From a virus (taxonomy: Duplodnaviria; Caudoviricetes), in IMG/VR virus record IMGVR_UViG_2857083903_000001, positions 1 to 64,000 of that record: a stretch of DNA of 64,000 nucleotides; one strand, given 5' to 3'. Shown piece after piece: positions 2,664 through 48,179 of the stretch. The notes under the pieces are model-generated. The model ran no database searches, was not told the origin of the DNA, and worked only from the letters and a program-made list of their open reading frames with translations. A program made the position numbers and the translations under genes. The first letter of the stretch is position 1. Each line of letters starts with the position of its first letter.

Positions 2664-2675
2664 GATGGGCCTTCC

Positions 2676-8826: not shown

Positions 8827-8859
8827 CTGAGTCCTGCCTCCCTTCCCTGGTTGTGGCCG

Positions 8860-9782: not shown

Positions 9783-9887
9783 GGGGTTGGTCCTCCGTCA
9801 GGGGAAGGGAGACCCGGCCGGACGCCCGCAGGCGCCCCTTCCCGAACGCCAGGGGTGTCCGGCCGGGAGCTGAGAGGGTGCGGGGGG

Positions 9888-10694: not shown

Positions 10695-10828
10695 TGGGGC
10701 CCCTTGACGTCCGGGGCCTGCTCCGCGTGGTGCGGTCAGCCCCTGTACACGTGATGTGTGGTCGGCCACCTCTTGGTGGCGTCCGCGTGGGGTCCCGCCG
10801 CGGTGCGGTCCGTGCAGTGCCTGACAGG

Positions 10829-11278: not shown

Positions 11279-11661
11279 TGCAACACCTCCATGACCGCGA
11301 ACTTCATCTGCATCTTCAACGTCTGCTCGATGAACGGCAGCGCCGGCTGCACGTGGGCAAACGGAGGCTGCGCATAGGAGCGGCCCAGGCTGTCCGTGCC
11401 GGTGAAGCCGAACTCCAGCCGGCGACCATAGGGAAGTTCGGTACCGATGGTGCACAGTGCACTGTTCACCCATCGGCGGTCCACCGACTTCCACGAGTTC
11501 CGGTAGGCGCCCGTGATGACGTTCGGACCGGGCCGGCCGGACGCGTTGCCCCGGATCTTGGCTATGCCCAGGGTTCCGGTGTGTGTGACGCCGCGCTGCA
11601 CGGCGGGGCCGACTCGTTTGGCGGCTGCCTCGAGGCGTTCGGCGAGTTCGTCGGGGGTCAC
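11275..11661 (-). CDS. HK97 gp10-like neck / tail completion protein
   Basis: SGRPGPNVITGAYRNSW, YGRRLEFG, PPFAHVQPA motifs. Confidence 0.8.
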   Translation of the reverse strand: MTPDELAERLEAAAKRVGPAVQRGVTHTGTLGIAKIRGNASGRPGPNVITGAYRNSWKSVDRRWVNSALCTIGTELPYGRRLEFGFTGTDSLGRSYAQPPFAHVQPALPFIEQTLKMQMKFAVMEVLQ

Positions 11662-12110
11662 GGGAGTCTCGATCCGGCGGTCTGGTTCTGGTCCAGGGCG
11701 GTGATGCGGATGACTTCGGTGGTGGCGGCGATACCGGGGTCTTGGCACAGCCAGGACCGGCCGATGAGGTCGGCCTGCTGGGGGTTGTGGACCTGTACGA
11801 CGGTGACGATGGCGTCCTTGGGGGCGATCGGCGCGGTGAGCGGGGTCATGAGCCGGTACCGGGAGTGGGTTTCCTGCGCCCACGGCTGGCCCGCGTTGGG
11901 TATGGACGACACCTCGGACTGGGCGATACCGCCCTGCACAGCACCAGGCCCCTCGTAGAGCACGTCGCCGGGCGGGTATTCGAGATGGCCGGTGGTCTCG
12001 TTGAGGACCGCGTCCTCGGTGGGCGGGAGCGTAATCCGGACGGTGTCCACGCACAGGTTGGTTTCGATCCATCGCCGGGCGGGGGCGAGGATGTCGTCTA
12101 GCCCAGGCAT
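11658..12110 (-). CDS. Head closure / stopper protein (DUF6093-like)
   Basis: DTVRIT...LYEGPGAVQ motif; synteny in neck module. Confidence 0.7.
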   Translation of the reverse strand: MPGLDDILAPARRWIETNLCVDTVRITLPPTEDAVLNETTGHLEYPPGDVLYEGPGAVQGGIAQSEVSSIPNAGQPWAQETHSRYRLMTPLTAPIAPKDAIVTVVQVHNPQQADLIGRSWLCQDPGIAATTEVIRITALDQNQTAGSRLP

Positions 12111-12496
12111 CAGACGCCCCTCCCCTGCGCCCAGTCGGCCAGGGTGGCGAGGATCGCTTCGGTGACGGAGGTCTTGCCGTCGCCGAGGTCCGGCCGGTCG
12201 AGGGCGGCTGTTTGGACGGCGGCCGGGTTGATGCTGGCGAGGAACGCGGCGATCTCCTCGCCGATGTCCTGCTGCTGGTCGGCGACCGTGACGCGGGCGA
12301 GCCCCTCCCACGTAGCGGCGGCGGGTTCCCGGACGTGGAGGACGAGCATGGGCAGCGCGTTGGCGATGTCGTGCTCTAGCCGATAGCCAACGACCTGGCC
12401 GCGCGGGAGGGGGGTGCCGTCGATTCGGACGGTGGCGTCACCGGGCTGGGCGTCGATCCGGACACCGTGCGCAGACGGCTCGGCGGGCTTGGTCAC
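12110..12496 (-). CDS. Hypothetical protein
   Basis: 128 aa ORF translationally coupled on both sides. Confidence 0.65.
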   Translation of the reverse strand: MTKPAEPSAHGVRIDAQPGDATVRIDGTPLPRGQVVGYRLEHDIANALPMLVLHVREPAAATWEGLARVTVADQQQDIGEEIAAFLASINPAAVQTAALDRPDLGDGKTSVTEAILATLADWAQGRGV

Positions 12497-13029
12497 TCGC
12501 TCTCACCGCTTCGGTGTGCCAGGTAGGAATCCCATCCTTCCCAAGCAGGGTCGGGCTCAAGTTCGACGATCTGTGGGACGGCTCGCTCAAACCGCACAGC
12601 TTCGCAGGTCCGTTCATCGAACGCCCTATTTCCTGCCTCATCGACGTAGAACTGCGTGAAGCAAATGATCTGGTTCCCGATGTGGCCTCCTCGATCCCGC
12701 CACTCCAAGCGGATATCTCCTCGTTCAACGAGGCGGGGATCAACTCCGTTGGCTCTCAACCACTTCGCCACGCGGTCCCGTTGTTCTGCCGTCAGGGGGA
12801 CACCTTTCTGCGTGACCCTCATGGAGCAGTTCACCACCGGATGAGGCACATGCCAGTCTTCCTCCAGCATCTTGTGGGAGACCCTGGTGGAGGAGACTTC
12901 GAAGCCACTGCTTCCATCGGCTGCTCCGACCCACGTCTCCACTGATGCCCGAACCACCGACATGCCGTCTGGCACCTCTACTTCGAGTCCGAGAGCGTCT
13001 AGTTCAGAGCCGATCCTCTTCTTGCTCAT
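12493..13029 (-). CDS. Hypothetical protein, atypical codon usage (moron-like)
   Basis: ATG at 13029 overlaps upstream TGA; visibly more A/T at third positions than its neighbours. Confidence 0.6.
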   Translation of the reverse strand: MSKKRIGSELDALGLEVEVPDGMSVVRASVETWVGAADGSSGFEVSSTRVSHKMLEEDWHVPHPVVNCSMRVTQKGVPLTAEQRDRVAKWLRANGVDPRLVERGDIRLEWRDRGGHIGNQIICFTQFYVDEAGNRAFDERTCEAVRFERAVPQIVELEPDPAWEGWDSYLAHRSGESE

Positions 13030-13874
13030 GCTGGGTCTCCTGAGACAAGGCCGCGGCGGCCGTTGAGGTCGGGGCGGGGAATCAGCTCGCGTACACACCC
13101 GTGATGGGCCACGGGGTAGGCCGCGCAGTCGTCGATGGATCGGATCGTGCCGTCAGCGTGATCGGTGTCCTGATGTCCAGTCCAGCCGCATTCGTCGCCG
13201 TCCCGGACCTGCATCCACTCGGCCTCCAGCTCTAGCCGGGCGGTGTTGATGGCGCCATGGTTGGCGGTGACCGCGCCCTGATAGGTGAGCGCGGACCGTG
13301 CCCAGTCCTTCACCGGGTGCCGGGCCTGGTCGCTGTAGACCACGGTGGACAGCGGATGATCAGCAGCAAGTCGGGGGGCGTCGATCCCGGCGTGGTTGCG
13401 GCCGAGGGTGACGGTGCGGGTGGCTTCCTGCGCGGCGCGGGCGAACGCCTGCGCCCGGCGTACCGCCTCCTGGATACGGGCCACCAGATCGACGTAGAAG
13501 ATGCTGGTGAGCCCGGTGAGGGCGGCCTGGTGGTCGGCTGTCCACCGGAACAGGGTGATGTCCCGGTTGGCGCGGCGCAGGGCGCGGAGGGCGCCGTCGC
13601 GGTAGGCGGTGGGAAGGTCTTGGGCGGCCCAGCGTTCGGCGACCGCGCGGGTGAGGCGGTCGAACTCGCCGACCTCGTGGTGGAACGCGGTGATGTAGCT
13701 GTTGATGCGGGTGGTGGCGCCGAGGCCGGGCCGTATCCGTTCCAGGGTGCGCAGCAGCCTGTCCTGGGCGACGGTGAGCCGGTTCCACTGCCGGGTAAGT
13801 TCCAGGACGGCGGCGGTGATGAGTGTGGTGAGTTCGCTGCGGTCGTCGCGGGTCTGCTGGGTGGGGGTGCTCAT
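13026..13874 (-). CDS. Phage minor capsid / head morphogenesis protein
   Basis: C-terminal RDGDECGW.GH...YPVAHHGCVR metal-binding motif of minor capsid/MuF-related proteins. Confidence 0.7.
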   Translation of the reverse strand: MSTPTQQTRDDRSELTTLITAAVLELTRQWNRLTVAQDRLLRTLERIRPGLGATTRINSYITAFHHEVGEFDRLTRAVAERWAAQDLPTAYRDGALRALRRANRDITLFRWTADHQAALTGLTSIFYVDLVARIQEAVRRAQAFARAAQEATRTVTLGRNHAGIDAPRLAADHPLSTVVYSDQARHPVKDWARSALTYQGAVTANHGAINTARLELEAEWMQVRDGDECGWTGHQDTDHADGTIRSIDDCAAYPVAHHGCVRELIPRPDLNGRRGLVSGDPA

Positions 13875-14200
13875 CGGCGGGGCCGTTCCTGCAGCAGGAT
13901 GACGCCGATGTGGTCGCGTGTGTCGGACGCGGTGGGGTCGTCGGGTGCGGGGGGTTCCCCGGCCTCGAGGGCGGTGATCTTCCGTTCGAGTGCGGCCAGG
14001 TTCGCGGTGAAATTCACGGCGACGACGTTGGTGACAGTGACCCCGGTCGGCTGAGCCAGCATGTCGGCATACCGTTCCCGCAACACCTCAAGGGCTACTG
14101 CGCGGGCGGTCCCGAGTCGTAGATACCGGGTGTTCAGGTCGGAAAGGTCGGTGGCCCTGCCGAGCTGGGAGAGCAGCCACGCCTGTACTGCACTGTCCAT
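13871..14200 (-). CDS. Head-tail adaptor-like protein
   Basis: 109 aa helical protein after capsid genes; AGGAG RBS. Confidence 0.6.
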   Translation of the reverse strand: MDSAVQAWLLSQLGRATDLSDLNTRYLRLGTARAVALEVLRERYADMLAQPTGVTVTNVVAVNFTANLAALERKITALEAGEPPAPDDPTASDTRDHIGVILLQERPRR

Positions 14201-14295
14201 CAGGTGGCTCCTTCACGGGCGTGTGGGGGTGGGAAGGGGTTGGGGTGTGCGGGCCCGCTCTGGCGCCCCACCAGGGGGCGGGCCCGCACACTCCC

Positions 14296-14613
14296 TCAGT
14301 TGCCGCTGCTGCCCTCGTCAGCGGCGTCCCGGCCCCCGGACCGGCTGGTGGCCGCACTCTTGCGTGCGGCGGTCTTCTTGGCCGAATGGGCGGCCTTGGT
14401 GTCCTGACTGGCGTCGTCCTGGTCGCCGCCAGCAGGGCTGTGGTCGCTCTTAGCGGGCTTGGACGAGCTCGGGACCTCGCCGTCGACCCAGGCGGCCGGG
14501 TTCGTCACCAGGGCGGCCAGCTCCGGCTCCGGGCAGGTGCCCGCAGCCAGTTCGACCGTCTGATGGGTTTCCGGGTCGTTCACGTACACCGTGGATGCGA
14601 GCTGGGCGGCCAT
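14296..14613 (-). CDS. Small head-associated protein
   Basis: Directly follows major capsid; LVTNPAAW motif, low-complexity tail. Confidence 0.6.
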   Translation of the reverse strand: MAAQLASTVYVNDPETHQTVELAAGTCPEPELAALVTNPAAWVDGEVPSSSKPAKSDHSPAGGDQDDASQDTKAAHSAKKTAARKSAATSRSGGRDAADEGSSGN

Positions 14614-14616
14614 AGG

Positions 14617-15681
14617 TCACCACACCGTCGCGGCGATGTGGATGTCCGGGGTGTACATGACCGGCAGCGCGGCCGCGGAGCACTTCGTGTACACCTGCGG
14701 CGGGTCGTCCTGGTAGCCGCGGGTGACGACGATCCCGGGGGCCTCCTCGCGGAGGATGGCCGGGTTGGCGCCCTGGGACAGGATGAGGCCGTCGGCGGTG
14801 AGACCGTACTGGGTCTCGGCCCACTGGGACGGGTTGGGCGGCAGCAGGAAGAACATGTTCTCCGGCAGGGCCCTCACGTCGGTGCCGTTGTCCAGCTCGA
14901 TCTTCACGTCGTAGCGCTCGATCGGGGGGAGGCCGTAGCGGGCGCGGACGACGTCGACCTCGTTGGGGGCGAGGACGGCGGTGGGGATGGTGCTGGCGGA
15001 GTTGACCGAGCCGTAGTAGGCGGCGCGGTAGGAGTCGTTCGCCATCATCTGCGCCCACCCCTTGTAGGAGGTGAGGGCGCGGGCCGGGGCGGGGGCGCCG
15101 GAGGAGCGGAGGACTTCGATCCAGCGCATCTCGTCGCCGAGGATGTCGGCCGTGGGGTCGGTCCACGCGGTGGGTGCGGTCGGCATGTTCGCGGCCGGCA
15201 CCTTGTAGTCGGCCTCGAGGGTGAGGTTGTTCTCGCCGACCAGGGTGAACTTGCCGTCGGTGAGGAGGTCGCCGGCTGCGAGTTCGAGGCGCTTCTTGAT
15301 GGACAGGACGTGCGCGGCAACGTCGTCGTAGACGGCCTGGACGAGGTCGCGGCTGTCCATGCCGCGGTCGAGGTTCTCCAGGATGGTCTCGAACTCGCCG
15401 ACGATGTACTTCTGGCCGAGCGGGAGGAGCTTGCCGGAGGTGGCGAACTGCGTGATCTCACGCGTGGCCACCTTGGTCTGGGCGTCCCATGCGCGGTAGT
15501 TCGCGGCGGCGACTCGTCGCCGGTTGCCGCGGGTCTCCCAGCGGACAGAGTTGATGGTTCGCTCGGGCATCACCGACAGGGTGAGTGCGTAGTCCGACGG
15601 GGTCTGGATTTCCCGGACGAATGCCTGGATTTCCGTCGGGTTCAGGTCGCGGAGCAGGAGCTCCAGCATGTCATTGGGCAT
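14617..15681 (-). CDS. Major capsid protein (lambda gpE-like family)
   Basis: 354 aa; YRAWDA, LPLGQK, RLELAAGDLLTDGK, AAALPV motifs; after scaffold and decoration genes. Confidence 0.9.
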   Translation of the reverse strand: MPNDMLELLLRDLNPTEIQAFVREIQTPSDYALTLSVMPERTINSVRWETRGNRRRVAAANYRAWDAQTKVATREITQFATSGKLLPLGQKYIVGEFETILENLDRGMDSRDLVQAVYDDVAAHVLSIKKRLELAAGDLLTDGKFTLVGENNLTLEADYKVPAANMPTAPTAWTDPTADILGDEMRWIEVLRSSGAPAPARALTSYKGWAQMMANDSYRAAYYGSVNSASTIPTAVLAPNEVDVVRARYGLPPIERYDVKIELDNGTDVRALPENMFFLLPPNPSQWAETQYGLTADGLILSQGANPAILREEAPGIVVTRGYQDDPPQVYTKCSAAALPVMYTPDIHIAATVW

Positions 15682-15696
15682 GGCGGTGTCTCCTGA

Positions 15697-16431
15697 TCAG
15701 ACCTTGTAGACGAACTGGGTGTTGGAGCCGGCCGGGGCGTCGGCGGGGTCGAAGGCGACCGGGAGCTTGGCGACGTCGATCTGGCCGTGGACCATCAGCG
15801 GGGCGGCGACCTTGGTGGAGCCGGGGTGGAAGGCGACCTCGGTGAACAGGAACCCGCGGAAGGTCTGGGTGCCGTCGCTGGCGGTGGCGGTGCCGCCGGC
15901 GGTGGTGGTGGCCATGGTGACGCCGGGGGTGCTGCCGCCGGTGAGGGAGGCGGTGGCGGTGATGGATGCGACGTTGTCGCCGAGGTACTGGCCGCCGAAC
16001 GTGAGGGTGTAGGGGCCGCCCGCGTTGCCGGTGACCTTGATGTCGCCGGGGTTGACGTTGGACAGCGCCTCAAGTGCGGCCTGGACGGTCGCGGCGGTGG
16101 CGTTGTAGGCGATGGCGCTGGTGGTCTGCCCGGAGAACGTGAGGGTGAACGTGCCGCCGGTGGGTCCGCCGGTGATGGTGGCGGTCTGGACCTCGTTGGT
16201 GACCGGGCTGTACGGCTCGAACAGCTTGGTCGTGGCGTTCTGCGCCAGGGGGATGCCGGACTTCAGCTTCCGCTCCGGCTGGTAGGCGGACGCCTCGAGC
16301 CAGTGCAGGTTCTGGTCGAACTGGGTGAGGTCGAGGGTGACGGTCTGGTTGGCTTCGATGCCGAGCATGCTCATGAGCCACGGGCGGCCGACAGCGAGCG
16401 TCTCGGTGCTGGTGTACGGCTGGATGTCCAC
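15697..16431 (-). CDS. Head decoration protein with inserted accessory domain
   Basis: LKSGIPL...GFLFT...HGQID..KLP decoration motifs interrupted by an EVQTATITGGPTGGTFTLTF domain. Confidence 0.8.
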   Translation of the reverse strand: MDIQPYTSTETLAVGRPWLMSMLGIEANQTVTLDLTQFDQNLHWLEASAYQPERKLKSGIPLAQNATTKLFEPYSPVTNEVQTATITGGPTGGTFTLTFSGQTTSAIAYNATAATVQAALEALSNVNPGDIKVTGNAGGPYTLTFGGQYLGDNVASITATASLTGGSTPGVTMATTTAGGTATASDGTQTFRGFLFTEVAFHPGSTKVAAPLMVHGQIDVAKLPVAFDPADAPAGSNTQFVYKV

Positions 16432-16538
16432 GCCGTAGCCCCTTTCGCGATGTCACGCGGGTGTGTGGTGAGGGCACCAGGTGGTGGTGCCGTCCACGGG
16501 GGGTGCGGGCGTGGTCCCAAGTCGTTCGGTGGAGCTGG

Positions 16539-17330
16539 TCAGCTTGCGGTGCGCAGGCCCATGGCTTCGGCGCGGGCGCGGGCGGCGTCCTTGACTGCGT
16601 CCTTCCCGGCTGTGGGCGGGCGCGGGGGGCCGCCGGCGGCGGGGCCTCCGGAAGGGGCCGGGGGCAGTGCCTGGTGGACTGTGCCGCCGAAGAGTTCGGT
16701 ACGGCGTTCCTTCAGCTTGTCGGCGGCCTCACTGATCGCGGCGTCGTCGGCGTCGTCCGCTACCCGGATCAGGGCGGTGGCGTCGTCGAGGTCGTCGCCG
16801 GTCGCGCCGAGCTTGACGAGCGCGGCCCGTATGCGGGTGTCGCGGTCTCGCTTGGCGGCATCGGCTTCACGCTGGGCGGCGGCGTCGATGCGGGCCTGGA
16901 GTTCCTGCTCGCGCCGGGTGAGTTCCTCGGTGCGCCGCTGTTCCTCGGAGAGCTGGGCTTGGCGTGCCTGTTCGGCCTGCTTGAACAGGTTGCCGAACTG
17001 GGTGGGTTCGAAGGAGTCCGGGTCGAGGCCGGCGGCTTCCGCGATGGTGCGGAAGGCGGCGCGACGGCCCTCTTCCTTCTCTTCGGACATCATCTTGTTC
17101 AGCCGTCGCTGGGTGAAGGAGACCTTCTCCTCCTCCGGGTCCGCCGGGTTGACGGGAGGCACGTGGATGGCGGGGACTGCCTGCGGGCGGCCGGCGAGGT
17201 CTGCCGGGGTGGGCGCGGCCGGTGCGGGCGGGGTGCCGCCGTCGTTGTAGAACACCGCGAGACCGTCCACACCTGTGTAAGGGTGGGCCCAGGCGGTGGC
17301 GGGGCGGGGCGGCTGCGTGGGGCGACGCAT
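16539..17330 (-). CDS. Capsid scaffolding protein
   Basis: Coiled-coil, charge-rich, FTQ motif, ELFG, Pro-rich end; GGGAGG RBS; between portal and decoration. Confidence 0.8.
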   Translation of the reverse strand: MRRPTQPPRPATAWAHPYTGVDGLAVFYNDGGTPPAPAAPTPADLAGRPQAVPAIHVPPVNPADPEEEKVSFTQRRLNKMMSEEKEEGRRAAFRTIAEAAGLDPDSFEPTQFGNLFKQAEQARQAQLSEEQRRTEELTRREQELQARIDAAAQREADAAKRDRDTRIRAALVKLGATGDDLDDATALIRVADDADDAAISEAADKLKERRTELFGGTVHQALPPAPSGGPAAGGPPRPPTAGKDAVKDAARARAEAMGLRTAS

Positions 17331-17356
17331 CGGTGACAGTCCTCCCATGGACAGTT

Positions 17357-17407
17357 CAGGCCCCGCGCCTGAGATCAAGGACACCACAGAAGTCACGATG
17401 TGTTCCC
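17357..17407 (-). promoter_or_regulatory. Late-type promoter GGGAAC-N18-TGTCCT plus AGGCGCGGGGCCTG box (scaffold/capsid)
   Basis: Same motifs and identical spacing as the copies at 19303-19353 and 22552-22602. Confidence 0.7.
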
Positions 17408-19285
17408 TCCGCTCCCTCCGGGCTGCGCGTCCGGCTGGTTGGTGGGCGTGTTGTCGGAGGGCAGACCGGGGAGTTGCGGCGCCGGCGGCGGGGTGGGGTC
17501 GGGGTTGATGTCGACGCCGAGGTAGTCGGCGACGAGCTTCGTGTCACCGGTGGCGTCGGCGAGCTGCCGGGCTGCTTCGAAGGAGCGGGATTCGATCTGC
17601 TTGACCTCTGCCTGAGCGTCGCTTATGGGCCAGCCCGCGTCCTGCAGCATGCGGATCGCGGTCTCGAGGCTGATCACCTTGGCCAGGTAGGCGGTGGTGA
17701 CCTGGTCGAGGACGGCAGCCTTGTCCGTCGGCGTGTAGGGGCCGCGGGTCAGCTTGGCCGGCAGGACGGGCAGCCCGGCCCAGTCGGGGTGCTGGCCTGC
17801 GTGGAAGAGACGCTGCACGAACTTGGGTATGAGCCGGTCGGCGTGGTCGCGGGCGAGCCGCATCCCGGCAATGTTGGAGTCGAGCGGGCCGAGGGACAGT
17901 TCGAGGGCATACCCGGAGGGCACCTTGGAGGGGTCCATGGTGCCCAGGGCGACGGCGGGGAGCCGGACGACGTTGGCTGCCCGGTCGTGGAGGTCGTGGC
18001 CGTGTTCGCGGAGTTCACGGAGGGCGGCGGAAGTGTCGACGGCGGTCATCTTGCCGTTCTCGCCGAGGGTGAACAGGGCGCCGGGGCCGACGTTGAACCG
18101 CTGATTGGAGTCGTGCACACCAGAGATGGCGATCATCGGGAGGCCGGTGGTGCCGGACGCGCGGGCAGAGTCGGTGTCCGACGCGGCAAGCTCGTCGAAC
18201 ACCTGCAGCGCCTTCGCCAGCGACGACTGGCCCCAGTGCTCGCCGGCGGCGGGCACCGTGTTGGGCAGGTGGATAACCGAGATGAAGTCCTGGTAGATGT
18301 CCAGCCGGTCCAGCACTTCGCCCTGGGAGTTGCTGTTGAAGTGGGCCTTCTCCATGGGCAGGGAGTCGACGTCGATGTCACCGGTGAGGTCCTCGAGGAG
18401 CCAGATCCCGTCGGTCAGGTAGCACGTCTTGTAAGAGGGCTGTTCCGACCACGGGTACATGCGGGAGATCGCCCCAAGGTGGTCGACCCGGTCGCCGCGG
18501 CCGAGGACCGGGATGGCGGGTTCGTCGTCGGTGGCTTCGGTGAGGACTGGGGCGCGGACGGGCCGCCCTTGCCGGTCGACCCCGGAGGCGGTGGCGGGCC
18601 TAATCCAGTCCAGCTCGTAGGTGATGCGGCGCAGCCGGGCGGGCAGGCGGCGTTTCTTGTCCTCGGGGAGTTCCCACGCGAAGTGGATTCGGGTGGGGTA
18701 GTCGGTACCGTCGGAGTCCTCGTCGATGACGGGGAAGTAGAAGCCGGGGTCGTAGGTGGTGATGCGGGGGCGCTGCTTGTCGGCGTCCCACCACAGGTGG
18801 AGTACCCCGTCGCCGAGGCCGACGGCCTTGCGTTCGGCCTGGAGGAGCCGCATGGGCAGGAGTTCCTCGTCGGCCCACTCGCGGAGGAGTTCCTGCACGC
18901 GTTCGGCCTGGACGGCCTGCGGGTCGGGCTGGTCGTCGTCGGCGTGTTCGGCGCCGGGCACGGTGATGGACTGCTCGCGGCCCAGGACGTGGGAGACGAG
19001 GGTGTCGACGAACATGGCGGGGTCGCCGTACTCGCGGCGTTCGCGGGCCTCAGCCCCGTCACGGATCTCGGCGAGTTCCCCGGCCTGGTTCTGGTCGTAG
19101 GCGGCGAGGAGTTTGTAGGAGGCGAGCCGGCGTTCGTCTTCGGCGGGGACCCACATGGCGGCGGCTTCGGGGAAGGCGCGGCGTTGTGGCATGCCGGTGG
19201 TGGGGTCGGCAAACAGCGGCTTGTAGTTGAACATCGACCAGTTGTCGATGCGCAGCGCGTGCCGCAGCCCGGTCATGAGGCCCAC
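17393..19285 (-). CDS. Portal protein
   Basis: 630 aa directly after TerL; GLGDGV, HLPN...WGQS, PSGYAL, ISLETA SPP1-like portal motifs. Confidence 0.85.
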   Translation of the reverse strand: MGLMTGLRHALRIDNWSMFNYKPLFADPTTGMPQRRAFPEAAAMWVPAEDERRLASYKLLAAYDQNQAGELAEIRDGAEARERREYGDPAMFVDTLVSHVLGREQSITVPGAEHADDDQPDPQAVQAERVQELLREWADEELLPMRLLQAERKAVGLGDGVLHLWWDADKQRPRITTYDPGFYFPVIDEDSDGTDYPTRIHFAWELPEDKKRRLPARLRRITYELDWIRPATASGVDRQGRPVRAPVLTEATDDEPAIPVLGRGDRVDHLGAISRMYPWSEQPSYKTCYLTDGIWLLEDLTGDIDVDSLPMEKAHFNSNSQGEVLDRLDIYQDFISVIHLPNTVPAAGEHWGQSSLAKALQVFDELAASDTDSARASGTTGLPMIAISGVHDSNQRFNVGPGALFTLGENGKMTAVDTSAALRELREHGHDLHDRAANVVRLPAVALGTMDPSKVPSGYALELSLGPLDSNIAGMRLARDHADRLIPKFVQRLFHAGQHPDWAGLPVLPAKLTRGPYTPTDKAAVLDQVTTAYLAKVISLETAIRMLQDAGWPISDAQAEVKQIESRSFEAARQLADATGDTKLVADYLGVDINPDPTPPPAPQLPGLPSDNTPTNQPDAQPGGSGGNTS

Positions 19286-23805: not shown

Positions 23806-26094
23806 TTAGTCGGTGAGCTGGTAGGTGCCGCGGCTGATGGCGGTGACGTGGCCGGCGTCGCGGAGTTCGGCCATGGCGTTGTTGACGCTGCCGGCGGCGA
23901 CGTCGGAGAGGTGGCGGCGGACGTCCTTGAGGGCCATGGGGCCGTCGGTGAGGAGGTCGAGGATGCGGTCCTTGATGCTGCCGGCGCTCGGCTGGTCGTC
24001 TTCGTCGTCGAGGACGACCTGCGTGTTGGATGCCTGCTGGCCGGTTTCGGGTGTGTCGTCGTCGCATTCTCCGGCGAGGAGGGCTTCGGCGTGGTCGAGC
24101 CAGCGGGCGTAGGACTCCTGGAAGACGCGGTCCTCGTCGGGGGTGAGGCGTGGGATGGGCGCGGATTCCATGAGGGTGATAAGGCCGGGGTAGGTCTTGT
24201 TCTCCTTGTGGGCGTACCAGGTGCGGTTCAGGAAGAGGCTTCCGCCGTTGATGATGTTGGCCATGCCGGCGGTGATGGGCCCCTTGGGGGCTTCGAGGCC
24301 GTGGAAGGCTGCGTCGATACTGCTGCCGTCGCTGGTGTTGAAGTAGCGGGGGATGGGTTCGATCTGGACGCCGGGCGGGAGGACGCCGTCGCGGGCCATG
24401 CTCTGGGTGGTGGAGGAGTTGGTGCGGCCGAGCCAGACGGTGCCGTTCTTGGCGTTGGCGCGGATGCGGTCTTTGTCGCCGAGGTCGGCGAGGTGGATGG
24501 ACTGGGCGGCGAAGCGGATGCCGAGGCCGAGCTTGCGGCCGGTTGACTGGGTGTCGCCGACCAGGCCGGTGACCCACTTGCGGAAGGGGCGGGGGACGAC
24601 GGCGTCGGCGGAGAGGATGCGGTTGAGTTCGTCGAGGGTGACGTTGACCAGTGGCCAGGGGTTGCCGATGTCGAAGGAGCCCCAGCCGTTCTGGGCGCTG
24701 ACCTGTTCGCGGTACTTACTGAGGTCGTTGGCGGCGGCGAGAGTGGCGGCGGTGGCGGCGATGCCCTTGCCGAAGTGGTAGACGCGGCCGTCGACCTCGG
24801 GCAGGGACATGCCGTCCTGGGCGTCGGCGGCAATGGAGACGATGCCGCTGATGCGTTCGCCGGCGATGACGTGGAGCAGGGTGACGGACTTGCCTGCGCC
24901 GGGGGCTCCGACGTACAGGTCGGTGATGGCTCCCATCTGGGGGTCGTAGAGGGGGACGCGGCCGGTGCGGCCGTCGGGGCGTTGGCCGAGGGCGATGGTG
25001 CCGTCGGGCTGCATGGTGAGGTCTTCGATGGTGGCTTCGCGGACGTTCATCAGCGGGTGGGTTTTGTAGATGCTGATGAGGCCCTCTCCGAGTCCGTCGG
25101 TTTCGACCATGAGGAGGGTGGCGTCGGCGATGTCGAAGGCGCGGGCGAGCATCTTCTGATTGAGCTGGATGAGGTGTCCGTCGGGGGCGGTGGTGCGTAG
25201 CGCGATCCGGTTGTCTTCGATGCGGTAGTCGGTGAGGAGCATGCCGGGGGCGGCGCCGCGCGGGTGGGTGATCTTCTCGTTCCAGATGCGGTGGATGGGG
25301 TCCTGTTCGGCCTGGGCGGCGGTGTCGAGGGTGGGGCGGGCGATGAGGACTTTCCGGCCGGGTCCGGAGCCGTCCATGGGCTGGAGGGTGACGGTGCCGG
25401 CGGGGAGGTCGAAGACGGCGGCGAGGGTGGTGGGGTTGAGGTCGGGGACGGCTTCGCCTTGGGGGGCGACGACGATGCCCCAGAAGTCGGGGGCGTTGTC
25501 CTGGTAGGGGGTGACGTTGGTGAGGAGGGTGTTGCCGGTGGTTCGGGCGGTGACCCATTCCCAGGCCCGGTATTCCTCGTAGGTGCGGGGGGCGGGCAGG
25601 GCGGGCGGGGTCTGCTGGGCGGGGGTGGTGTCGGGGGTGGGCGTCTCTGTGGTCGGGGTGGGGAGGATGGCCTTGAGGTTCAGGGAGTGGGTGATGGGGG
25701 TGGTGCCGGCCATGGTGATGCCCCAGGCGGCGGGCGCGAGGTACTCCCACCAGGTGGTGCCGGGGTGGAGGAGGTCGGTGAGGTAGACGCTGGCGCCGGT
25801 CAGCCAGGGCAGGGCGCGCTGGGTGGCCTGGAGGAAGCCGAGGGTGTGACCGGTGGTGTCGTCGTCGCGGCGGTCGAGTTTCTTCCACAGCCAGCAGAAC
25901 GCGCCGACGGCGATCCCGCCTGCGGTGAGGTGGGCTGCCGTCCAGTCGGGCTGGGTGGGGGCGATGGTGATGCCGAGGGTGGCGGCGCCGTAGGTGAGGC
26001 GCTCGAGCTGGATTCGACGGCGCAGACTGTGTGCGGGTACGAGCCGGGGGCCGTCGGTGGCGGCTTCGATAGCGGGGGTCTGGTCGGTGGCCAC
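23806..26094 (-). CDS. traB: FtsK/SpoIIIE-like conjugative DNA translocase (Streptomyces TraB type)
   Basis: N-terminal TM segments, Walker A GAPGAGKS, Walker B VTLDE, FAAQS motif, C-terminal winged helix. Confidence 0.85.
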   Translation of the reverse strand: MATDQTPAIEAATDGPRLVPAHSLRRRIQLERLTYGAATLGITIAPTQPDWTAAHLTAGGIAVGAFCWLWKKLDRRDDDTTGHTLGFLQATQRALPWLTGASVYLTDLLHPGTTWWEYLAPAAWGITMAGTTPITHSLNLKAILPTPTTETPTPDTTPAQQTPPALPAPRTYEEYRAWEWVTARTTGNTLLTNVTPYQDNAPDFWGIVVAPQGEAVPDLNPTTLAAVFDLPAGTVTLQPMDGSGPGRKVLIARPTLDTAAQAEQDPIHRIWNEKITHPRGAAPGMLLTDYRIEDNRIALRTTAPDGHLIQLNQKMLARAFDIADATLLMVETDGLGEGLISIYKTHPLMNVREATIEDLTMQPDGTIALGQRPDGRTGRVPLYDPQMGAITDLYVGAPGAGKSVTLLHVIAGERISGIVSIAADAQDGMSLPEVDGRVYHFGKGIAATAATLAAANDLSKYREQVSAQNGWGSFDIGNPWPLVNVTLDELNRILSADAVVPRPFRKWVTGLVGDTQSTGRKLGLGIRFAAQSIHLADLGDKDRIRANAKNGTVWLGRTNSSTTQSMARDGVLPPGVQIEPIPRYFNTSDGSSIDAAFHGLEAPKGPITAGMANIINGGSLFLNRTWYAHKENKTYPGLITLMESAPIPRLTPDEDRVFQESYARWLDHAEALLAGECDDDTPETGQQASNTQVVLDDEDDQPSAGSIKDRILDLLTDGPMALKDVRRHLSDVAAGSVNNAMAELRDAGHVTAISRGTYQLTD

Positions 26095-45600: not shown

Positions 45601-45637
45601 CGGTGCCCCCGCCTGACGGAAACAGGCGGGGGCACCG
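45601..45637. terminator. Intrinsic terminator hairpin
   Basis: Perfect stem CGGTGCCCCCGCCTG / CAGGCGGGGGCACCG. Confidence 0.75.
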
Positions 45638-46097
45638 TCATGCAGACTACCCGGCACGCGCAGGCAGGCCGGAAAGGCATCAGGCGGGCCGGGATGGCGC
45701 GGGTGTGCTGGCGGCCGGTGTCGGGGCCCCTGGTGTAGGGCGGGAGGACACCGGCCGCAGTCAGACACGTTGCGAAGCAACCAGTAGGGGGCCGGTCCGA
45801 TTGCCGCGCTGCGATTCCCCATAGGGAAACGGCTACCGAAACCGGTTACCCACCCGGTTTACCCGCAGACCCCCACCCGAGAAGCACCCCGACAGTAATT
45901 CGAACACCGCCACAGCACCCACAACCCCAGACAAGAGCCAGCACACGATCCCCAACAACCTGGCAGGCCAGGACCGCGCACACCGATGATGCACCGGACA
46001 ACTACCCGTTTTCCACGGAAGATTTTGAGGGGTAAACCTATGCTCACTACCTACACTTGACTCTTAGTCAACTCGCCTATCGGGGGGATACCGCAAA

Positions 46098-46913
46098 GTG
46101 AACAAGGACGCACTTAAAAAGTTCCTCAAGGAACGGCGCGACGGTATAGCACCCGAATCCCTCGGCCTTACCCGGCCCGCCGCACGACAGGGACGCCGCT
46201 CCCTCGGCCTCGCCCAGGACCAGGTCGACGAACTCCTGAACCGGGCCCGCAACACCTACCAGAAGCTCGAAGCCGGCCGGTACAAGAACCCGCCCGTCGA
46301 CCTGCTCCGCGACATCGCCTGCCTCTACCAGCTCAACGAGCAGGAGTGGACCGCGCTGTGCCGGTACGCCCGCGGCGAGGACCCGCCCACACCCCTCTAC
46401 GACACCACCGGCTATGCCGTACCCGCGGCCTGGGAGGACGCCGTCACCCGGGTCGTCGCCCCCGCCTACGTCACCGACGCCTCCTGGACCGTCCTCGCCC
46501 ACAACCAGCCGTTTGAGGACCTGTTCATCAGGGAGCCGCCAGCGAACACCATGCGGTGGATGCTCGTCTCTGGGAGGGAGCAACTCATCGACTGGGAAGG
46601 CGCGTGGGCGCCGCTCGTCATGCCCCAGCTCAAAGCGGCTCTCGCCCAACGCCCCCAGGATCAGGTCCTCCGCGGGATCGAAACCGACGTCTGCGCCGAC
46701 CCGGCATCCAGAGCCCTGTACGAGAAGGGTGGGGCGTCGATTCACCCGGACGGGCATGAACGGCCGATCCGGCACGCCGTGGAGGGCGATGGCTGGGTGA
46801 CGATGTGCGCGGCGCAGCCCATGGCCTCCCCCGGCGCCCGGTTCATGATCCTCATTTTTCGGCCGGACACCCAGCCCCCCATGGACCGGCCGCCGCTCCT
46901 GAAAGCCCCCTGA
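46098..46913 (+). CDS. MmyB-family transcriptional regulator (XRE HTH + PAS-like ligand-binding domain)
   Basis: LKKFLKERR..I.PESLGL...RR..GL.Q...Y.KLE.GR and PAYVTD.SW.VLAHN motifs. Confidence 0.85.
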   Translation: MNKDALKKFLKERRDGIAPESLGLTRPAARQGRRSLGLAQDQVDELLNRARNTYQKLEAGRYKNPPVDLLRDIACLYQLNEQEWTALCRYARGEDPPTPLYDTTGYAVPAAWEDAVTRVVAPAYVTDASWTVLAHNQPFEDLFIREPPANTMRWMLVSGREQLIDWEGAWAPLVMPQLKAALAQRPQDQVLRGIETDVCADPASRALYEKGGASIHPDGHERPIRHAVEGDGWVTMCAAQPMASPGARFMILIFRPDTQPPMDRPPLLKAP

Positions 46914-47044
46914 GCAGCCAGTCCACCCATCTATGCCCCGATTCGACGGGCAGTCGGGCACCATGCCAGTACGGCAGAGGGAAACGTTCAAGCCATCTGC
47001 CGTACTTTGACCGGACCAGGTCACGTGTGTCCAAGGGGGGACCC

Positions 47045-48091
47045 ATGCCCGTCCGTATCAGCCAGCCCGTCACCATCCTCGCCGCCCACAAAGTCACGAC
47101 CGCGGAGATAGCCGACGACATCCGCGCCCACCACCCGGACCATCCGCGGCTCGGCGCGATCCTCCGCGTCATCGACAACTGCGGCGTCGACTCCCGCTAC
47201 TTCACGCAGCCGCTCACCGCGGACACCATCACCGGCACCGCCCCCATCGCCGACCGTGTCCGCCGCGCGTTCGCCGACGGCCTGGCCATGGCCGAGCAGG
47301 CCGCCCGCCGCATCCTCGACGAGCAGGGCCTCCAACCCGCAGACGTCACCGGGCTCATCACCACACACGCCACCGGCTGGGCCGTCCCCAACCTGGACGT
47401 CCACCTGGTGCACCGGCTCGGCCTCAGCCCGACCATCCGCCGCACCGCCCTCACCACCACAGCCTGCGCCGGCGGAGCCCACGCCCTCATCCGCGCCACC
47501 GAGCAAGCCCTCCTGCACCCCGGCTCCCACGTCCTCGTCGTCGCCGCCGAAGTCCTCTCCACCTCCTACAACCATGCCGACACCGGCATCGAGCACATGA
47601 TCTACAAAGCCCTGTTCGGGGACTCCGCGGCCGCGACCATCGTGTCCTCCGACCCGCACGGCCCCGGCCTCCAGGTCGACGCTGACGGCTTGTTCGAGTA
47701 CGCCATGCCAGGCTCACTGGACTACTACGCCGGCCGCATCGACAGCACCGGCCTCCACTTCGACTCCACGAAGCAAGCCTCCGGCGGCGCGAAGCAGGCG
47801 ATGCCCGCCGTCATCGACTGGCTCGACGGCCGCACCGTCGACACACCCGTCATCCACCCCGGCTCCCGGCCGATCATCCTCGACACCGCGACCGCGCTCG
47901 GCATGACCGAGCACGATGCACGGCACTCCCTGGACACCCTCACCACCGAAGGCAACCTGGGTGGGGTAGCCGTACTCCGGGTCCTGGAACGCACCCACGA
48001 CGACCCGCCCGCCGCCGGGGCGCAGGCACTGGTGGTGGCGTACGGGCCAGGATTCACCGTGTCCGCCCTCCACGGCGCCTGGACCAACTGA
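47045..48091 (+). CDS. Type III polyketide synthase (germicidin synthase/PhlD-like)
   Basis: Catalytic triad Cys (TACAGG), His (IHPG), Asn (EGNLG); ALFGDSAAA and YGPGFT signatures; AAGGGGG RBS. Confidence 0.93.
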   Translation: MPVRISQPVTILAAHKVTTAEIADDIRAHHPDHPRLGAILRVIDNCGVDSRYFTQPLTADTITGTAPIADRVRRAFADGLAMAEQAARRILDEQGLQPADVTGLITTHATGWAVPNLDVHLVHRLGLSPTIRRTALTTTACAGGAHALIRATEQALLHPGSHVLVVAAEVLSTSYNHADTGIEHMIYKALFGDSAAATIVSSDPHGPGLQVDADGLFEYAMPGSLDYYAGRIDSTGLHFDSTKQASGGAKQAMPAVIDWLDGRTVDTPVIHPGSRPIILDTATALGMTEHDARHSLDTLTTEGNLGGVAVLRVLERTHDDPPAAGAQALVVAYGPGFTVSALHGAWTN

Positions 48092-48179
48092 GGTAGCCAG
48101 CCTGGCGCGCTGCCTGGCGGCATGCGCGCCGGCATCCAGCGGAGGGAACAACCGGCCGGATCAGCGGCACCGTAGAGGC

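What the first reader, a model, noticed from the sequence alone, without database searches (positions are those of the whole stretch)
46098..48091. Phage-borne type III polyketide synthase paired with an MmyB-type ligand sensor: candidate small-molecule signalling or host-manipulation system
Seen: an intact type III PKS (Cys-His-Asn triad, ALFGD, GPGF) directly downstream of an MmyB-family regulator, embedded among phage genes with no tailoring enzymes or transporters. Established: MmyB-family proteins have an XRE HTH plus a PAS-like pocket for hydrophobic ligands; stand-alone Streptomyces type III PKSs such as germicidin synthase make alkyl-pyrones affecting spore germination. Inference: the element makes a diffusible polyketide and senses it, either as a non-peptide analogue of arbitrium (choosing lysis, plasmid state or conjugation) or to alter host development. 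The resemblance to germicidin synthase is from memory, not from an alignment.
Basis: partly seen in the sequence, partly recalled or inferred. Interest (0 to 1): 0.88.

Follow-up and report, generated by a model that had tools for sequence, protein, structure and literature searches.

The report
Regulator–polyketide synthase cassette on a phage-plasmid
A Streptomyces phage-plasmid carries a small two-gene unit, a ligand-sensing regulator next to a stand-alone polyketide synthase, that recurs in most related phage-plasmids but also sits in many chromosomes, so it looks like portable cargo of unknown product and not a phage-only signalling device.

Summary
Window 46098-46913 encodes an MmyB-family regulator (XRE HTH plus PAS-like ligand domain). 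Window 47045-48091 encodes an intact type III PKS with Cys141/His271/Asn304. Both lie on a separate 86.9-kb contig with siphovirus structural genes, related to the plasmid-phage ZL12.

The pair is a discrete cassette of about 2.4 kb. The regulator lies directly upstream in 12 of 12 and 29 of 29 homologous loci fetched, and the identities of the two proteins co-vary (r = 0.88).

The cassette is in phiZL12 itself (pZL12.99/100), in pSLE1, and in 25 of 33 capsid-related Streptomycetaceae plasmids. It is also in 34 of 400 other Streptomyces species genomes. There, 23 of 27 contexts examined hold no other phage-plasmid gene, and at least 11 chromosomal loci are involved.

The PKS tree interleaves phage-plasmid and chromosomal copies (AU test p 1e-49 against a single split). 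The enzyme belongs to an uncharacterised clade, 30% identical to the host's own RppA and no closer to germicidin synthase.

Best reading: a self-regulated cargo module that makes a small untailored polyketide. An arbitrium-like phage signal is not excluded but has no support. The PKS on pZL12 and pSLE1 is already in print; the tight pairing with the regulator was not found in print.

The parts
45710..45758 (+). GC-rich hairpin (arms GGCCGGTGTC / GACACCGGCC) at the left edge of the region conserved between contexts. It may be an insulating terminator or the cassette boundary.
   Evidence: It is the first alignable block upstream of the regulator in 7 of the 8 loci aligned. The window carries a compensatory change in both arms relative to GGTGCC/GGCACC in the others. 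It folds as a 12-bp stem. No Rfam family reaches its gathering score.
45813..45830 (+). Second small conserved inverted repeat (TTCCC-N-GGGAA) in the cassette's 5' region.
46025..46053 (+). Promoter-like stretch for the regulator gene (TTGAGG-N17-TACCTA; relatives have TTTACA-N17-TAATTA).
   Evidence: Read from the alignment of 8 loci. The strict sigma-70 consensus scan did not call it. This is inference.
46057..46071 (+). Dyad TTGACT-CTT-AGTCAA between the promoter-like stretch and the ribosome-binding site of the regulator gene; candidate operator.
   Evidence: The right half, CAGTCAAC, is conserved in the subclade. The pattern was derived from these sites, so its count is not an independent test.
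46098..46913 (+). MmyB-family transcription regulator, 271 aa: XRE-type HTH plus PAS-like ligand-binding domain.
   Evidence: Pfam. Profile hit to 3pxp, E 3.7e-4. AlphaFold2 model with pLDDT 92.8, whose best Foldseek PDB hit is 3pxp, E 2.1e-9.
46969..47005 (+). Inverted repeat GTACGGCAG-N19-CTGCCGTAC in the regulator-PKS spacer. Its loop holds the conserved GGGAAAC motif at the -35 position of the PKS promoter-like site.
   Evidence: The arms change between clades but stay complementary in several loci (for example 11 bp in L012). This was read by eye and not tested statistically.
47003..47008 (+). -10-like hexamer TACTTT, about 40 nt upstream of the PKS start. The family consensus is GTA(C/G)(G/C)TT.
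   Evidence: Seen at the same distance in most of the 53 loci listed. Inference.
47007..47023 (+). Dyad TTGACC-N6-GGTCA overlapping the -10-like hexamer; candidate operator at the PKS promoter.
47045..48091 (+). Stand-alone type III polyketide synthase, 348 aa, with Cys141/His271/Asn304.
619..19285 (-). Context: siphovirus structural module. Minor tails 619-3602, tape measure 3565-8826, major tail 9888-10769, major capsid 14617-15681, head decoration 15697-16431, portal 17393-19285.
   Evidence: PHROGs and Pfam.
23806..26094 (-). Context: TraB/FtsK-like Streptomyces conjugative DNA translocase.
   Evidence: tblastn hits on features annotated as transfer protein or DNA translocase FtsK, including TraA of record AL645771 (48.6% identity over 66% of the query). 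No Pfam or PHROG hit.

Best explanation
The finding is a self-contained, horizontally mobile two-gene module of about 2.4 kb, carried as accessory cargo by a pZL12-like conjugative phage-plasmid.

Shown here:
- The MmyB-family regulator and the type III PKS are always adjacent and co-oriented, and they co-evolve.
- The PKS has an intact catalytic triad.
- Both genes evolve under purifying selection.
- The same unit sits in most plasmid-borne relatives and at many chromosomal sites.

Inferred:
- The regulator binds a lipid-like small molecule in its PAS-like pocket. This could be the acyl starter or the PKS product.
- It acts at dyad-bearing promoter-like regions in front of its own gene and of the PKS gene, and so switches the PKS on or off.
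- The PKS condenses a host acyl-CoA or acyl-ACP starter with malonyl-CoA into a small untailored polyketide, of the pyrone, resorcinol or phloroglucinol type.
- That compound benefits the carrier cell, for example through the envelope, stress tolerance, competition or superinfection. The element benefits through its host (lysogenic conversion) rather than through a lysis-lysogeny decision.
For: Domains, triad and fold.

Pair constancy. The regulator is directly upstream in 12 of 12 loci that have upstream sequence and in 29 of 29 loci from the genus survey, one of them only a partial match. It is also directly upstream in phiZL12 and in 31 plasmid records, by coordinates. Pairwise identities of the PKS and the regulator correlate at r = 0.88 over 49 loci.

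Discrete unit. Between different contexts, DNA similarity runs only from about 390 bp upstream of the regulator to just past the PKS stop.

Cargo. The window's nearest capsid relatives (86-92% identity) lack the cassette, while its nearest PKS relatives have capsids 64-67% identical. Of 34 capsid-related plasmids, 25 carry it.

Works without phage genes. In 23 of 27 contexts from species genomes there is no other phage-plasmid gene within about 20 kb or to the contig end. Four further species and L011 have ordinary metabolic neighbours.

Repeated exchange. The tree needs at least 6 changes of context, and a single split is rejected (delta lnL 421, p-AU 1e-49).

Selection. dN/dS is 0.18-0.63 for the PKS over 16 pairs and 0.12-0.48 for the regulator over 15 pairs.

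Own promoter-like region for the PKS.

Family background. MmyB-family proteins have an Xre HTH plus a PAS-like domain, one was crystallised with a fatty acid, and the family is linked to secondary and fatty-acid metabolism (PMC3406030, abstract and passages).
Against: No product, ligand or DNA target has been shown.

The promoter and operator assignments are readings of alignments. The consensus promoter scan found nothing in 45500-48700. The dyad pattern was derived from the two sites it then 'finds': 4 matches in the window against a chance mean of 2.09.

Orthologous regulators (51-53% identity) occur without any PKS, next to parAB, on linear plasmids. The regulator could therefore have other targets.

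Prevalence of 76% in capsid-related plasmids, against about 8% of species genomes, hints at a benefit tied to the plasmid-phage lifestyle, which plain cargo does not explain.

dN/dS values up to 0.6 are high for an enzyme under strong constraint.

No PADLOC defence family matched either protein or 8 neighbours, so a defence role has no homology support.
Confidence: 0.6

Rival explanations
1. Synthase-receptor signalling pair used by the phage-plasmid. The PKS makes a diffusible polyketide autoinducer. The MmyB-type protein is its receptor, and through it the element measures the density of carriers and sets lytic induction, copy state or conjugation. This would be a non-peptide analogue of arbitrium.
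For: The architecture resembles signal synthase-receptor pairs. It is two tightly linked, co-evolving genes with no tailoring or export genes. Both proteins diverge quickly (identities down to 40-50%, dN/dS about 0.2-0.6), as would be expected if specificities diversify. Prevalence is high in plasmid-state relatives, 25 of 33. Phage-plasmid copies span the whole depth of the tree. A more distant PKS homologue (39%) lies beside a ScbR-family autoregulator receptor.
Against: The cassette sits at 11 or more chromosomal loci with no phage gene nearby, and it is retained across related species (groups of 9, 4, 4, 3 and 2 genomes). In the window, the candidate operator dyad occurs only at the cassette's own two promoters plus one site inside a coding frame. 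Of 37 species genomes with a related capsid, only 4 have the cassette, and in one of those it is unlinked. No secretion or uptake function is linked to the pair.
Confidence: 0.12
2. The product acts on host development, like germicidin, which is a germination autoinhibitor. The element would use it to hold spores or neighbours in a state that favours its own spread.
For: Germicidin synthase (PDB 3v7i; the name is recalled) is the second-best solved relative, E 5.2e-38. The element also carries a WhiB-like developmental regulator.
Against: 1u0m is the closer solved relative (E 1.4e-42). Both are distant, and the PKS is only 30% identical to the host's own RppA. No named germicidin synthase appears among the best 120 of 445 homologues. 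Nothing in the cassette points to acyl-ACP use or to methylmalonyl or ethylmalonyl extender use.
Confidence: 0.07
3. The two genes are neighbours but are not a regulatory pair. The regulator controls other plasmid or host genes, and the PKS is expressed independently.
For: Orthologous regulators (51-53% identity) lie next to parA/parB with no PKS on 92-223 kb linear plasmids. The best sequence-profile PDB hit of the HTH part is a phage immunity repressor (8bny, E 6.8e-7). The PKS has its own promoter-like region. Small ORFs are inserted between the two genes in pCQ4 and in the NBC_01259 plasmid.
Against: Adjacency and orientation are kept in every one of the 41 loci checked (12 and 29). They are kept across at least 6 context changes and down to about 40% identity. 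The divergence of the two proteins is correlated (r = 0.88). Similar dyads stand at both promoters in the window's subclade.
Confidence: 0.1

Closest known systems
pZL12.99 / pZL12.100 of Streptomyces plasmid-phage ZL12 (GQ919031)
   Same: Same gene pair in the same order and orientation. The regulator is 53.1% and the PKS 57.9% identical. It sits on a 90.4-kb circular element with a related capsid, 49.6% identical. The deposited record annotates them as 'transcriptional regulator' and 'type III polyketide synthase'.
   Different: The window's element is a mosaic. Its capsid is closest to plasmids that lack the cassette, and its TraB-like gene is shared with few relatives. The function of the pair in pZL12 is not described in anything I could read. 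Zhong et al. 2010 is not held; I know it only from the reference list of PMC4487206.
Type III PKS of pSLE1, Streptomyces leeuwenhoekii (LN831788)
   Same: The PKS is 75.5% and the regulator 71.9% identical, and the two are adjacent. The paper notes the PKS as RppA-like, 59% identical to pZL12-100, with neighbours that do not form a natural-product cluster (PMC4487206, passages).
   Different: In the passages read, the paper does not mention the regulator pairing or the wider distribution.
1,3,6,8-tetrahydroxynaphthalene synthase RppA (PDB 1u0m; the enzyme name is recalled, the entry is titled 'putative polyketide synthase')
   Same: Best solved relative, E 1.4e-42 over residues 7-347, with the same Cys-His-Asn triad.
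   Different: The host chromosome has a true orthologue (E 3.8e-212 to 1u0m) that is only 30% identical to the plasmid PKS. The residue aligned to chain position Y232 of 1u0m (Tyr224 of RppA by recall, needed for malonyl priming) is Gly230 here, and is Gly in 50 of 53 homologues.
Germicidin synthase Gcs (PDB 3v7i; name recalled)
   Same: Stand-alone Streptomyces type III PKS, and the second-best solved relative, E 5.2e-38.
   Different: It is no closer than RppA, and nothing supports a shared product.
MmyB / MltR family of regulators (PDB 3pxp)
   Same: Xre-type HTH plus PAS-like ligand domain, shown by Pfam and by fold. The family is tied to secondary and fatty-acid metabolism (PMC3406030).
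   Different: Sequence likeness to 3pxp is weak: 16-17% identity in the fold alignment, and profile E 3.7e-4. The conserved TTA codon known for mmyB is absent here: 1 of 51 regulator genes and 1 of 53 PKS genes have one. Ligand and operator are unknown.
Arbitrium (AimP/AimR) and other phage communication systems
   Same: Only the proposed logic is shared: an element-encoded signal maker plus a receptor.
   Different: There is no homology, no peptide, and no link to a lysis-lysogeny regulator. The cassette also lives in chromosomes without phage genes.

Membership tests
Type III polyketide synthase (chalcone/stilbene synthase superfamily) | Thiolase-fold domains of the family | tested here: met
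   Chal_sti_synt_N scores 81.2 bits (cut-off 27) and ACP_syn_III_C 27.7 bits (cut-off 26.6). Chal_sti_synt_C scores only 18.3 bits, below its cut-off of 27. 102 PDB type III PKS chains match at E<=1e-5.
Type III polyketide synthase (chalcone/stilbene synthase superfamily) | Cys-His-Asn catalytic triad | tested here: met
   Cys141, His271 and Asn304 align to the triad positions of 1u0m and are invariant in 53 of 53 homologues.
Type III polyketide synthase (chalcone/stilbene synthase superfamily) | Iterative condensation of malonyl-CoA on a starter to give a polyketide | not testable with these tools
   This needs an enzyme assay or heterologous expression with LC-MS.
RppA / THN synthase | Orthology to characterised THN synthase | tested here: not met
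   The host's own orthologue matches 1u0m at E 3.8e-212. The plasmid PKS is 30% identical to that orthologue.
RppA / THN synthase | Tyr at the malonyl-priming position (Tyr224; its role is recalled from the literature) | tested here: not met
   Gly230 aligns there. It is Gly in 50 of 53 homologues.
Germicidin synthase | Closer to Gcs than to other type III PKS clades | tested here: not met
   3v7i scores E 5.2e-38 against 1u0m at E 1.4e-42. I could not build a tree with named Gcs, SrsA or PhlD sequences, because no such sequences were available from the tools.
PhlD / DpgA (names given by automatic annotation) | Score above the curated family cut-off | tested here: not met
   The best NCBIfam hit is DpgA at 97.6 bits against a cut-off of 425, and no PhlD model was listed. 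'PhlD' in related records is an automatic name.
MmyB-family regulator | N-terminal Xre-type HTH plus C-terminal MmyB-like ligand-binding domain | tested here: met
   HTH_31 and HTH_3 at residues 30-87, and MLTR_LBD at residues 116-258 with 46.3 bits (cut-off 26.3).
MmyB-family regulator | Fold like MltR (3pxp): HTH joined to a PAS-like domain | tested here: met
   The model has pLDDT 92.8. The top Foldseek hits are 3pxp_B and 3pxp_A, E 2.1e-9 and 5.7e-9 over 277-280 columns, followed by PAS domains. Global TM is only 0.45, so the domain orientation differs or is uncertain.
MmyB-family regulator | Binds a small hydrophobic ligand that changes DNA binding | not testable with these tools
   This needs binding assays.
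pZL12-like phage-plasmid | Extrachromosomal replicon of about 85-95 kb with a full tailed-phage structural module | tested here: met
   Separate 86,882-bp contig. Capsid, portal, tape measure and tail genes are present. The capsid is 49.6% identical to phiZL12 and 40-92% identical to 33 plasmids. Circularity was not shown: the contig ends do not overlap in the simple check.
pZL12-like phage-plasmid | Plasmid maintenance and transfer genes | tested here: inconclusive
   Found: a replication-initiator-like protein, DnaB, DciA, a tyrosine integrase and a TraB-like translocase. ParA/ParB were not found among the ORFs I scanned.
pZL12-like phage-plasmid | Switch between plasmid state and lytic growth | not testable with these tools
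   This needs induction and plaque assays.
Phage communication system (arbitrium-like) | The receptor controls a lysis-lysogeny regulator of the element | tested here: inconclusive
   The candidate dyad occurs only at the cassette's own promoters and once inside a coding frame in the 64-kb window. The true operator is unknown.

The most novel reading that the evidence does not exclude
The cassette is a polyketide-based synthase-receptor signalling unit. pZL12-like phage-plasmids use it to sense carriers of the same 'pherotype' and to set induction, copy state or conjugation. The rapid co-divergence of PKS and regulator would create private channels. The chromosomal copies would be captured listeners or relics of integrated elements.
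Probability: 0.12. Interest if true: 0.9.

Novelty: new member of a known kind. Interest (0 to 1): 0.5.

Why it matters
Biosynthetic genes are rare on phages, and phage-plasmids are only now being catalogued. Here one family of Streptomyces phage-plasmids carries the same regulated polyketide synthase in about three quarters of its plasmid-borne members, and has exchanged it with chromosomes repeatedly.

The enzyme belongs to a clade of several hundred sequences with no characterised member. The cassette is only 2.4 kb and self-contained, so product, ligand and phenotype can be tested directly by moving it into a clean host.

If the product proves to be a signal or a superinfection or competition factor, it would be a small-molecule form of lysogenic conversion in antibiotic-producing bacteria. 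If it is a plain metabolite, the finding still defines a new, widely distributed regulator-synthase pair.

Tried and rejected
Nearby DNA matches. A megablast of window 40000-52000 against phages found nothing. Against plasmids it found only patches, mainly the cassette. This region is therefore variable, and I did not pursue synteny by DNA.

Backbone marker. I tried the 762-aa protein at 23806-26094 as a marker to enumerate the family independently of the capsid. It turned out to be a TraB-like transfer protein shared mostly with ordinary conjugative plasmids, so it was useless for that count.

Contig size as a proxy. I first took 85-95 kb contig size as a sign of phage-plasmid context. G006:C39 (89,101 bp) disproved this: it carries urea carboxylase, ROK, ABC-transporter and sugar-metabolism genes, and shares only the pair with the window's contig. 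Contig lengths are therefore given only as a rough split: about 30 of the best 120 are at 85-102 kb and about 32 are above 110 kb.

Named reference enzymes for a tree. The 14 control genomes of the genome search gave no Streptomyces reference, and none of the best 120 homologues carries an experimental name. The outgroup is only the host's RppA orthologue.

Other searches with no useful result:
- PADLOC: 0 families for 10 proteins.
- Rfam: nothing above gathering. M23 RNA at 45601-45677 scored E 0.053, 24.7 bits against 41.2, and I took it as chance on a terminator-like hairpin.
- Consensus promoter scan: 0 sites. The one terminator-like site is at chance level.
- TTA (bldA) control: no conserved TTA codon.
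- RNA evidence: no RNA holder was listed.

Papers. No paper in the library holds both 'MmyB' and 'type III polyketide synthase'. Searches for pZL12, phage-plasmid plus polyketide synthase, phage-plasmids plus BGC, T3PKS plus prophage, and plasmid-phage gave only two relevant statements, in PMC4487206 and PMC10023795. PMC13659240 was read in passages and is irrelevant. Supplements were not opened; Supplementary Table S9 of PMC10023795 may list these same plasmids.

Rows dropped. L009 (cut at the contig end) and L014 (28% identity, unrelated MAG) were left out of the pair count. L059 (partial) and L130 (my extraction had stops) were left out of the regulator correlation, and the L129/L130 regulator value was left out of the dN/dS range. 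G196 and G041 were not re-fetched, because they belong to the chromosomal group already examined.
Full report
OBSERVATION

ORF listing shows two co-oriented genes at the stated place: 46098-46913 (271 aa) and an open frame at 46805-48091.

The first gene has an Xre-type HTH (HTH_31 27.0 bits, HTH_3 26.4 bits, residues 30-87). It also has the MmyB-like ligand-binding domain (PF17765, 46.3 bits against a cut-off of 26.3, residues 116-258).

The second gene is a type III PKS: Chal_sti_synt_N 81.2 bits, ACP_syn_III 33.9 bits, ACP_syn_III_C 27.7 bits. Chal_sti_synt_C scores 18.3 bits, below its cut-off. Its likely start is ATG 47045. That start lies behind AAGGGGGG and gives 348 aa, as annotated in relatives. 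The longer frame would overlap the regulator.

Against solved structures the best matches are 1u0m (E 1.4e-42, residues 7-347) and 3v7i (E 5.2e-38). Cys141, His271 and Asn304 align to the catalytic positions. All four features are kept in 52-53 of 53 homologues.

THE ELEMENT

The window is the first 64 kb of a separate 86,882-bp contig with GC 68.7%. The other contig is a 6.34-Mb chromosome with GC 71.9%.

The window holds these phage genes:
- minor tail proteins, a 1753-aa tape measure and a major tail protein;
- an E-type major capsid protein, a head decoration protein and a portal.

It also holds DnaB, and the rest of the contig holds a replication-initiator-like protein, two DNA methyltransferases, a Rad52-like recombinase, DciA and a tyrosine integrase. 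A WhiB-like and a LuxR-type regulator are present too. A 762-aa protein resembles Streptomyces TraB/FtsK-type transfer proteins.

The capsid protein is 49.6% identical to that of Streptomyces phage ZL12, and 40-92% identical to proteins of 33 Streptomycetaceae plasmids. All but one of those plasmids are 85-94 kb. pZL12 is cited as a characterised plasmid-phage in PMC4487206 (passages read). The original paper is not held. I therefore call the element a pZL12-like, probably conjugative, phage-plasmid. Its lytic competence is untested.

THE PAIR IS A UNIT

phiZL12 itself has the same two genes side by side. They are pZL12.99, 'transcriptional regulator' (53.1% identity), and pZL12.100, 'type III polyketide synthase' (57.9% identity).

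In PLSDB, 31 records hold a PKS at least 47% identical. In all 31 the regulator lies upstream on the same strand, by coordinates. The gaps are 81-536 bp, with one of 955 bp in pCQ4, where two small ORFs intervene.

In species-representative genomes:
- the regulator is directly upstream in 12 of 12 loci that have upstream sequence;
- it is directly upstream in 29 of 29 loci from a survey of 400 congeners, one of them only a partial match.

Pairwise identities of the two proteins correlate at r = 0.88 over 49 loci.

Between unrelated contexts, DNA similarity is confined to about 2.4 kb. It begins at a conserved GC-rich hairpin about 390 bp upstream of the regulator (window 45710-45758, with a compensatory change in the window's copy). 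It ends within a few bases of the PKS stop.

WHERE THE CASSETTE LIVES

Plasmids. Of the 34 PLSDB records with a related capsid, 25 are also in the PKS and regulator lists. That is 25 of 33 if the one Actinoalloteichus record is left out. The other 9 are not among the 60 best of 86 PKS-matching records, so any PKS they have is below about 30% identity.

The window's nearest capsid relatives (86-92%: S. janthinus, S. chartreusis, JCM17656, pSAM1) lack the cassette. Its nearest PKS relatives (81% and 75.5%: NEAU-sy36 plasmid and pSLE1) have capsids only 64-67% identical. The element is therefore a mosaic.

A 91.7-kb contig (G007:C23) shares non-structural genes and the cassette with the window's contig, but not the structural module. 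The capsid-based count therefore misses some relatives.

In phage-plasmids the cassette usually lies a few kb from DUF6233 and NERD genes. This suggests long residence at one place in the family.

Species genomes. Of 400 other Streptomyces species genomes, 34 have an orthologue at E<=1e-60. I fetched up to 20 kb on each side for 27 of them and searched with all ORFs of the window's contig, of G007:C23, and of the flanks of three plasmid and phage records.
- Three contexts (G035, G148, G378) are clearly phage-plasmid-like.
- One (G355) is ambiguous.
- Twenty-three have no other phage-plasmid gene.

Several of the 23 lie in multi-megabase contigs: G324 at 248 kb of 7.39 Mb, G183 at 421 kb of 7.87 Mb, G174 at 247 kb of 7.88 Mb, and G089 at 5.20 Mb of 7.57 Mb.

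The 23 fall into synteny groups of 9, 4, 3 and 2 genomes plus five singletons. A further group of four species (L004-L007, 94% identical over 13 kb) and L011 have urea carboxylase, ROK, ABC-transporter, GH65, TauD, P450 and CHAT-domain neighbours, and no related capsid anywhere in their genomes (positive control). That makes at least 11 distinct chromosomal loci.

Conversely, 37 of the 400 genomes have a related capsid gene, many inside chromosomes. Only 4 of those also have the cassette, and in one of the 4 it is unlinked.

So the cassette is common in plasmid-state relatives, absent from most integrated relatives, and by species count mostly chromosomal.

TREE AND SELECTION

The tree holds 53 PKS sequences: 21 labelled phage-plasmid, 28 chromosomal and 4 other, with labels fixed from context beforehand. 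It is rooted on the host's RppA orthologue and was built with IQ-TREE, LG+G4, quick search.

It needs at least 6 changes between the two contexts. Phage-plasmid copies occur from the base to the tips, and chromosomal groups are nested among them. A tree that separates the two contexts by one branch is rejected (delta lnL 421, p-AU 1e-49). The direction of transfer is not established, because the outgroup branch is long.

Nei-Gojobori dN/dS is 0.18-0.63 for the PKS over 16 pairs and 0.12-0.48 for the regulator over 15 pairs. Both genes are under purifying but not strict selection. Strong GC3 bias may inflate these ratios.

WHAT THE PROTEINS ARE

The regulator model (28-sequence alignment, pLDDT 92.8) has MltR (3pxp) as its best PDB match, E 2.1e-9 over 277 columns, followed by PAS domains. 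The sequence profile also reaches 3pxp (E 3.7e-4). For the HTH part alone, it reaches a phage immunity repressor (8bny, E 6.8e-7).

Xu et al. 2012 (PMC3406030, abstract and passages) describe the family as Xre HTH plus PAS-like domain, crystallised with a fatty acid, and linked to antibiotic and fatty-acid metabolism. They say MmyB is thought to bind pseudo-palindromic 'B-boxes'.

The PKS clade has 445 members at E<=1e-20 among the candidates scored. The best 120 carry only automatic names, such as PhlD, naringenin-chalcone synthase and type III PKS. NCBIfam gives no family above its cut-off; the best is DpgA at 97.6 bits against 425.

The host has its own RppA orthologue (E 3.8e-212 to 1u0m), only 30% identical to the plasmid enzyme. 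The residue aligned to Tyr224 of RppA is Gly230, and it is Gly in 50 of 53 homologues. The numbering and the role of Tyr224 are recalled, not from a call. This argues against a THN synthase and for a roomier starter pocket. The product cannot be named from sequence.

CIS ELEMENTS (all inference)

About 40 nt upstream of the PKS start, most loci share a -10-like GTA(C/G)(G/C)TT (window TACTTT, 47003-47008). A CAGGGGnAA-like motif stands at the -35 position, and the whole is embedded in inverted repeats whose arms differ between clades.

In the window's subclade both genes have a TTGAC-N-GTCA dyad just after the -10-like hexamer (46057-46071 and 47007-47023). The only other match in the 64 kb lies inside a coding frame. 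The pattern was derived from these sites, so the count (4 matches against a chance mean of 2.09) is no test.

The consensus scan found no sigma-70 promoter. Expression data were not available.

READING

The constant pairing, the co-divergence, the clean cassette edges and survival in chromosomes without phage genes all point one way. The cassette is best read as a self-sufficient regulator-enzyme module whose benefit is felt by the carrier cell. Phage-plasmids pick it up, keep it and pass it on as cargo.

The signalling reading keeps some appeal. The architecture is synthase plus receptor, divergence is fast, and 76% of capsid-related plasmids carry the cassette against about 8% of species genomes. 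But it has no direct support, and it must explain the long-retained chromosomal copies.

The germicidin analogy has no sequence support beyond family membership.

Variants seen elsewhere may help future work:
- an MBL-fold hydrolase between regulator and PKS, with a divergent fabG, on a 939-kb linear plasmid;
- a 39% PKS homologue beside a ScbR-family receptor;
- regulator orthologues without a PKS next to parAB.

WHAT IS KNOWN

The PKS on pZL12 and pSLE1 is annotated and mentioned in print. It is described as RppA-like and not part of a cluster (PMC4487206, passages). A survey of actinobacterial prophages states that T3PKS were found only in prophages on plasmids (PMC10023795, passage; supplements not seen).

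I found no paper that holds both 'MmyB' and 'type III polyketide synthase'. None of the searches turned up a product or a role for this enzyme.

The window's cassette is thus a new member of a known, annotated but unstudied kind.

Noticed in passing
window 23806-26094 (-): A 762-aa protein with no Pfam or PHROG hit matches Streptomyces plasmid transfer proteins: TraA of record AL645771 (48.6% identity over 66% of the query), and many features annotated 'transfer protein' or 'DNA translocase FtsK'. The phage-plasmid probably also conjugates. Among capsid-related plasmids, only NZ_CP107756 shares it closely (71%).
   Followed up: partly
window 48180-49409 (+): DUF7352 (48180-48602) and a metalloprotease-like protein with weak M10/M12 hits (48627-49409) follow the PKS on the same strand. 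A DUF7352 gene (69% identity) also follows the PKS in G007:C23 but not in other loci, so it is not part of the cassette.
   Followed up: partly
window 43673-44056, 49627-49971, 50050-50682, 51243-51899, 55015-55680: The variable region around the cassette holds a SLOG/YspA protein, DUF6233, a NERD nuclease-related protein, a LuxR-type regulator and a WhiB-like regulator. DUF6233 and NERD recur near the cassette in most phage-plasmid relatives. None of the proteins tested matched PADLOC; the LuxR-type and WhiB-like proteins were not tested.
   Followed up: partly
L136 (NZ_CP108296.1) and L137 (NZ_CP109039.1): Orthologues of the regulator (51-53% identity) sit on 92-223 kb linear plasmids without any PKS. 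Each is followed by a 76-aa ORF and lies near parA/parB, with a divergent DUF4344 metallopeptidase. The regulator clade may have a second, plasmid-related role.
   Followed up: no
L132 (NZ_CP108821.1) and L133 (NZ_CP109342.1): There are more distant variants of the pair. One is HTH - MBL-fold hydrolase - PKS with a divergent fabG, on a 939-kb linear plasmid. The other is a 39% PKS homologue convergent with a ScbR-family autoregulator receptor, on a 161-kb linear plasmid.
   Followed up: no
window 45599-45639: A strong GC-rich hairpin lies right after the ORF that ends at 45587; it is probably that ORF's terminator. It gives a sub-threshold Rfam hit to M23 RNA (E 0.053), which I took as chance.
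   Followed up: partly
G000:C1:672214-673242: The host chromosome has its own RppA/THN synthase orthologue (E 3.8e-212 to 1u0m). A second chalcone-synthase-like domain lies inside a 1029-aa open frame at C1:5751945-5752535.
   Followed up: partly
G006:C39 (L015-L019): This 89,101-bp contig carries the cassette and is the size of a phage-plasmid, but it holds ordinary chromosomal genes (urea carboxylase, allophanate hydrolase, ROK, ABC transporter, ThuA). Contig length alone misleads when classing these loci.
   Followed up: yes
genus survey: Capsid genes related to the window's are found in 37 of 400 Streptomyces species genomes, many deep inside chromosomes. The same capsid type therefore serves both integrated prophages and plasmid-state elements.
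   Followed up: no
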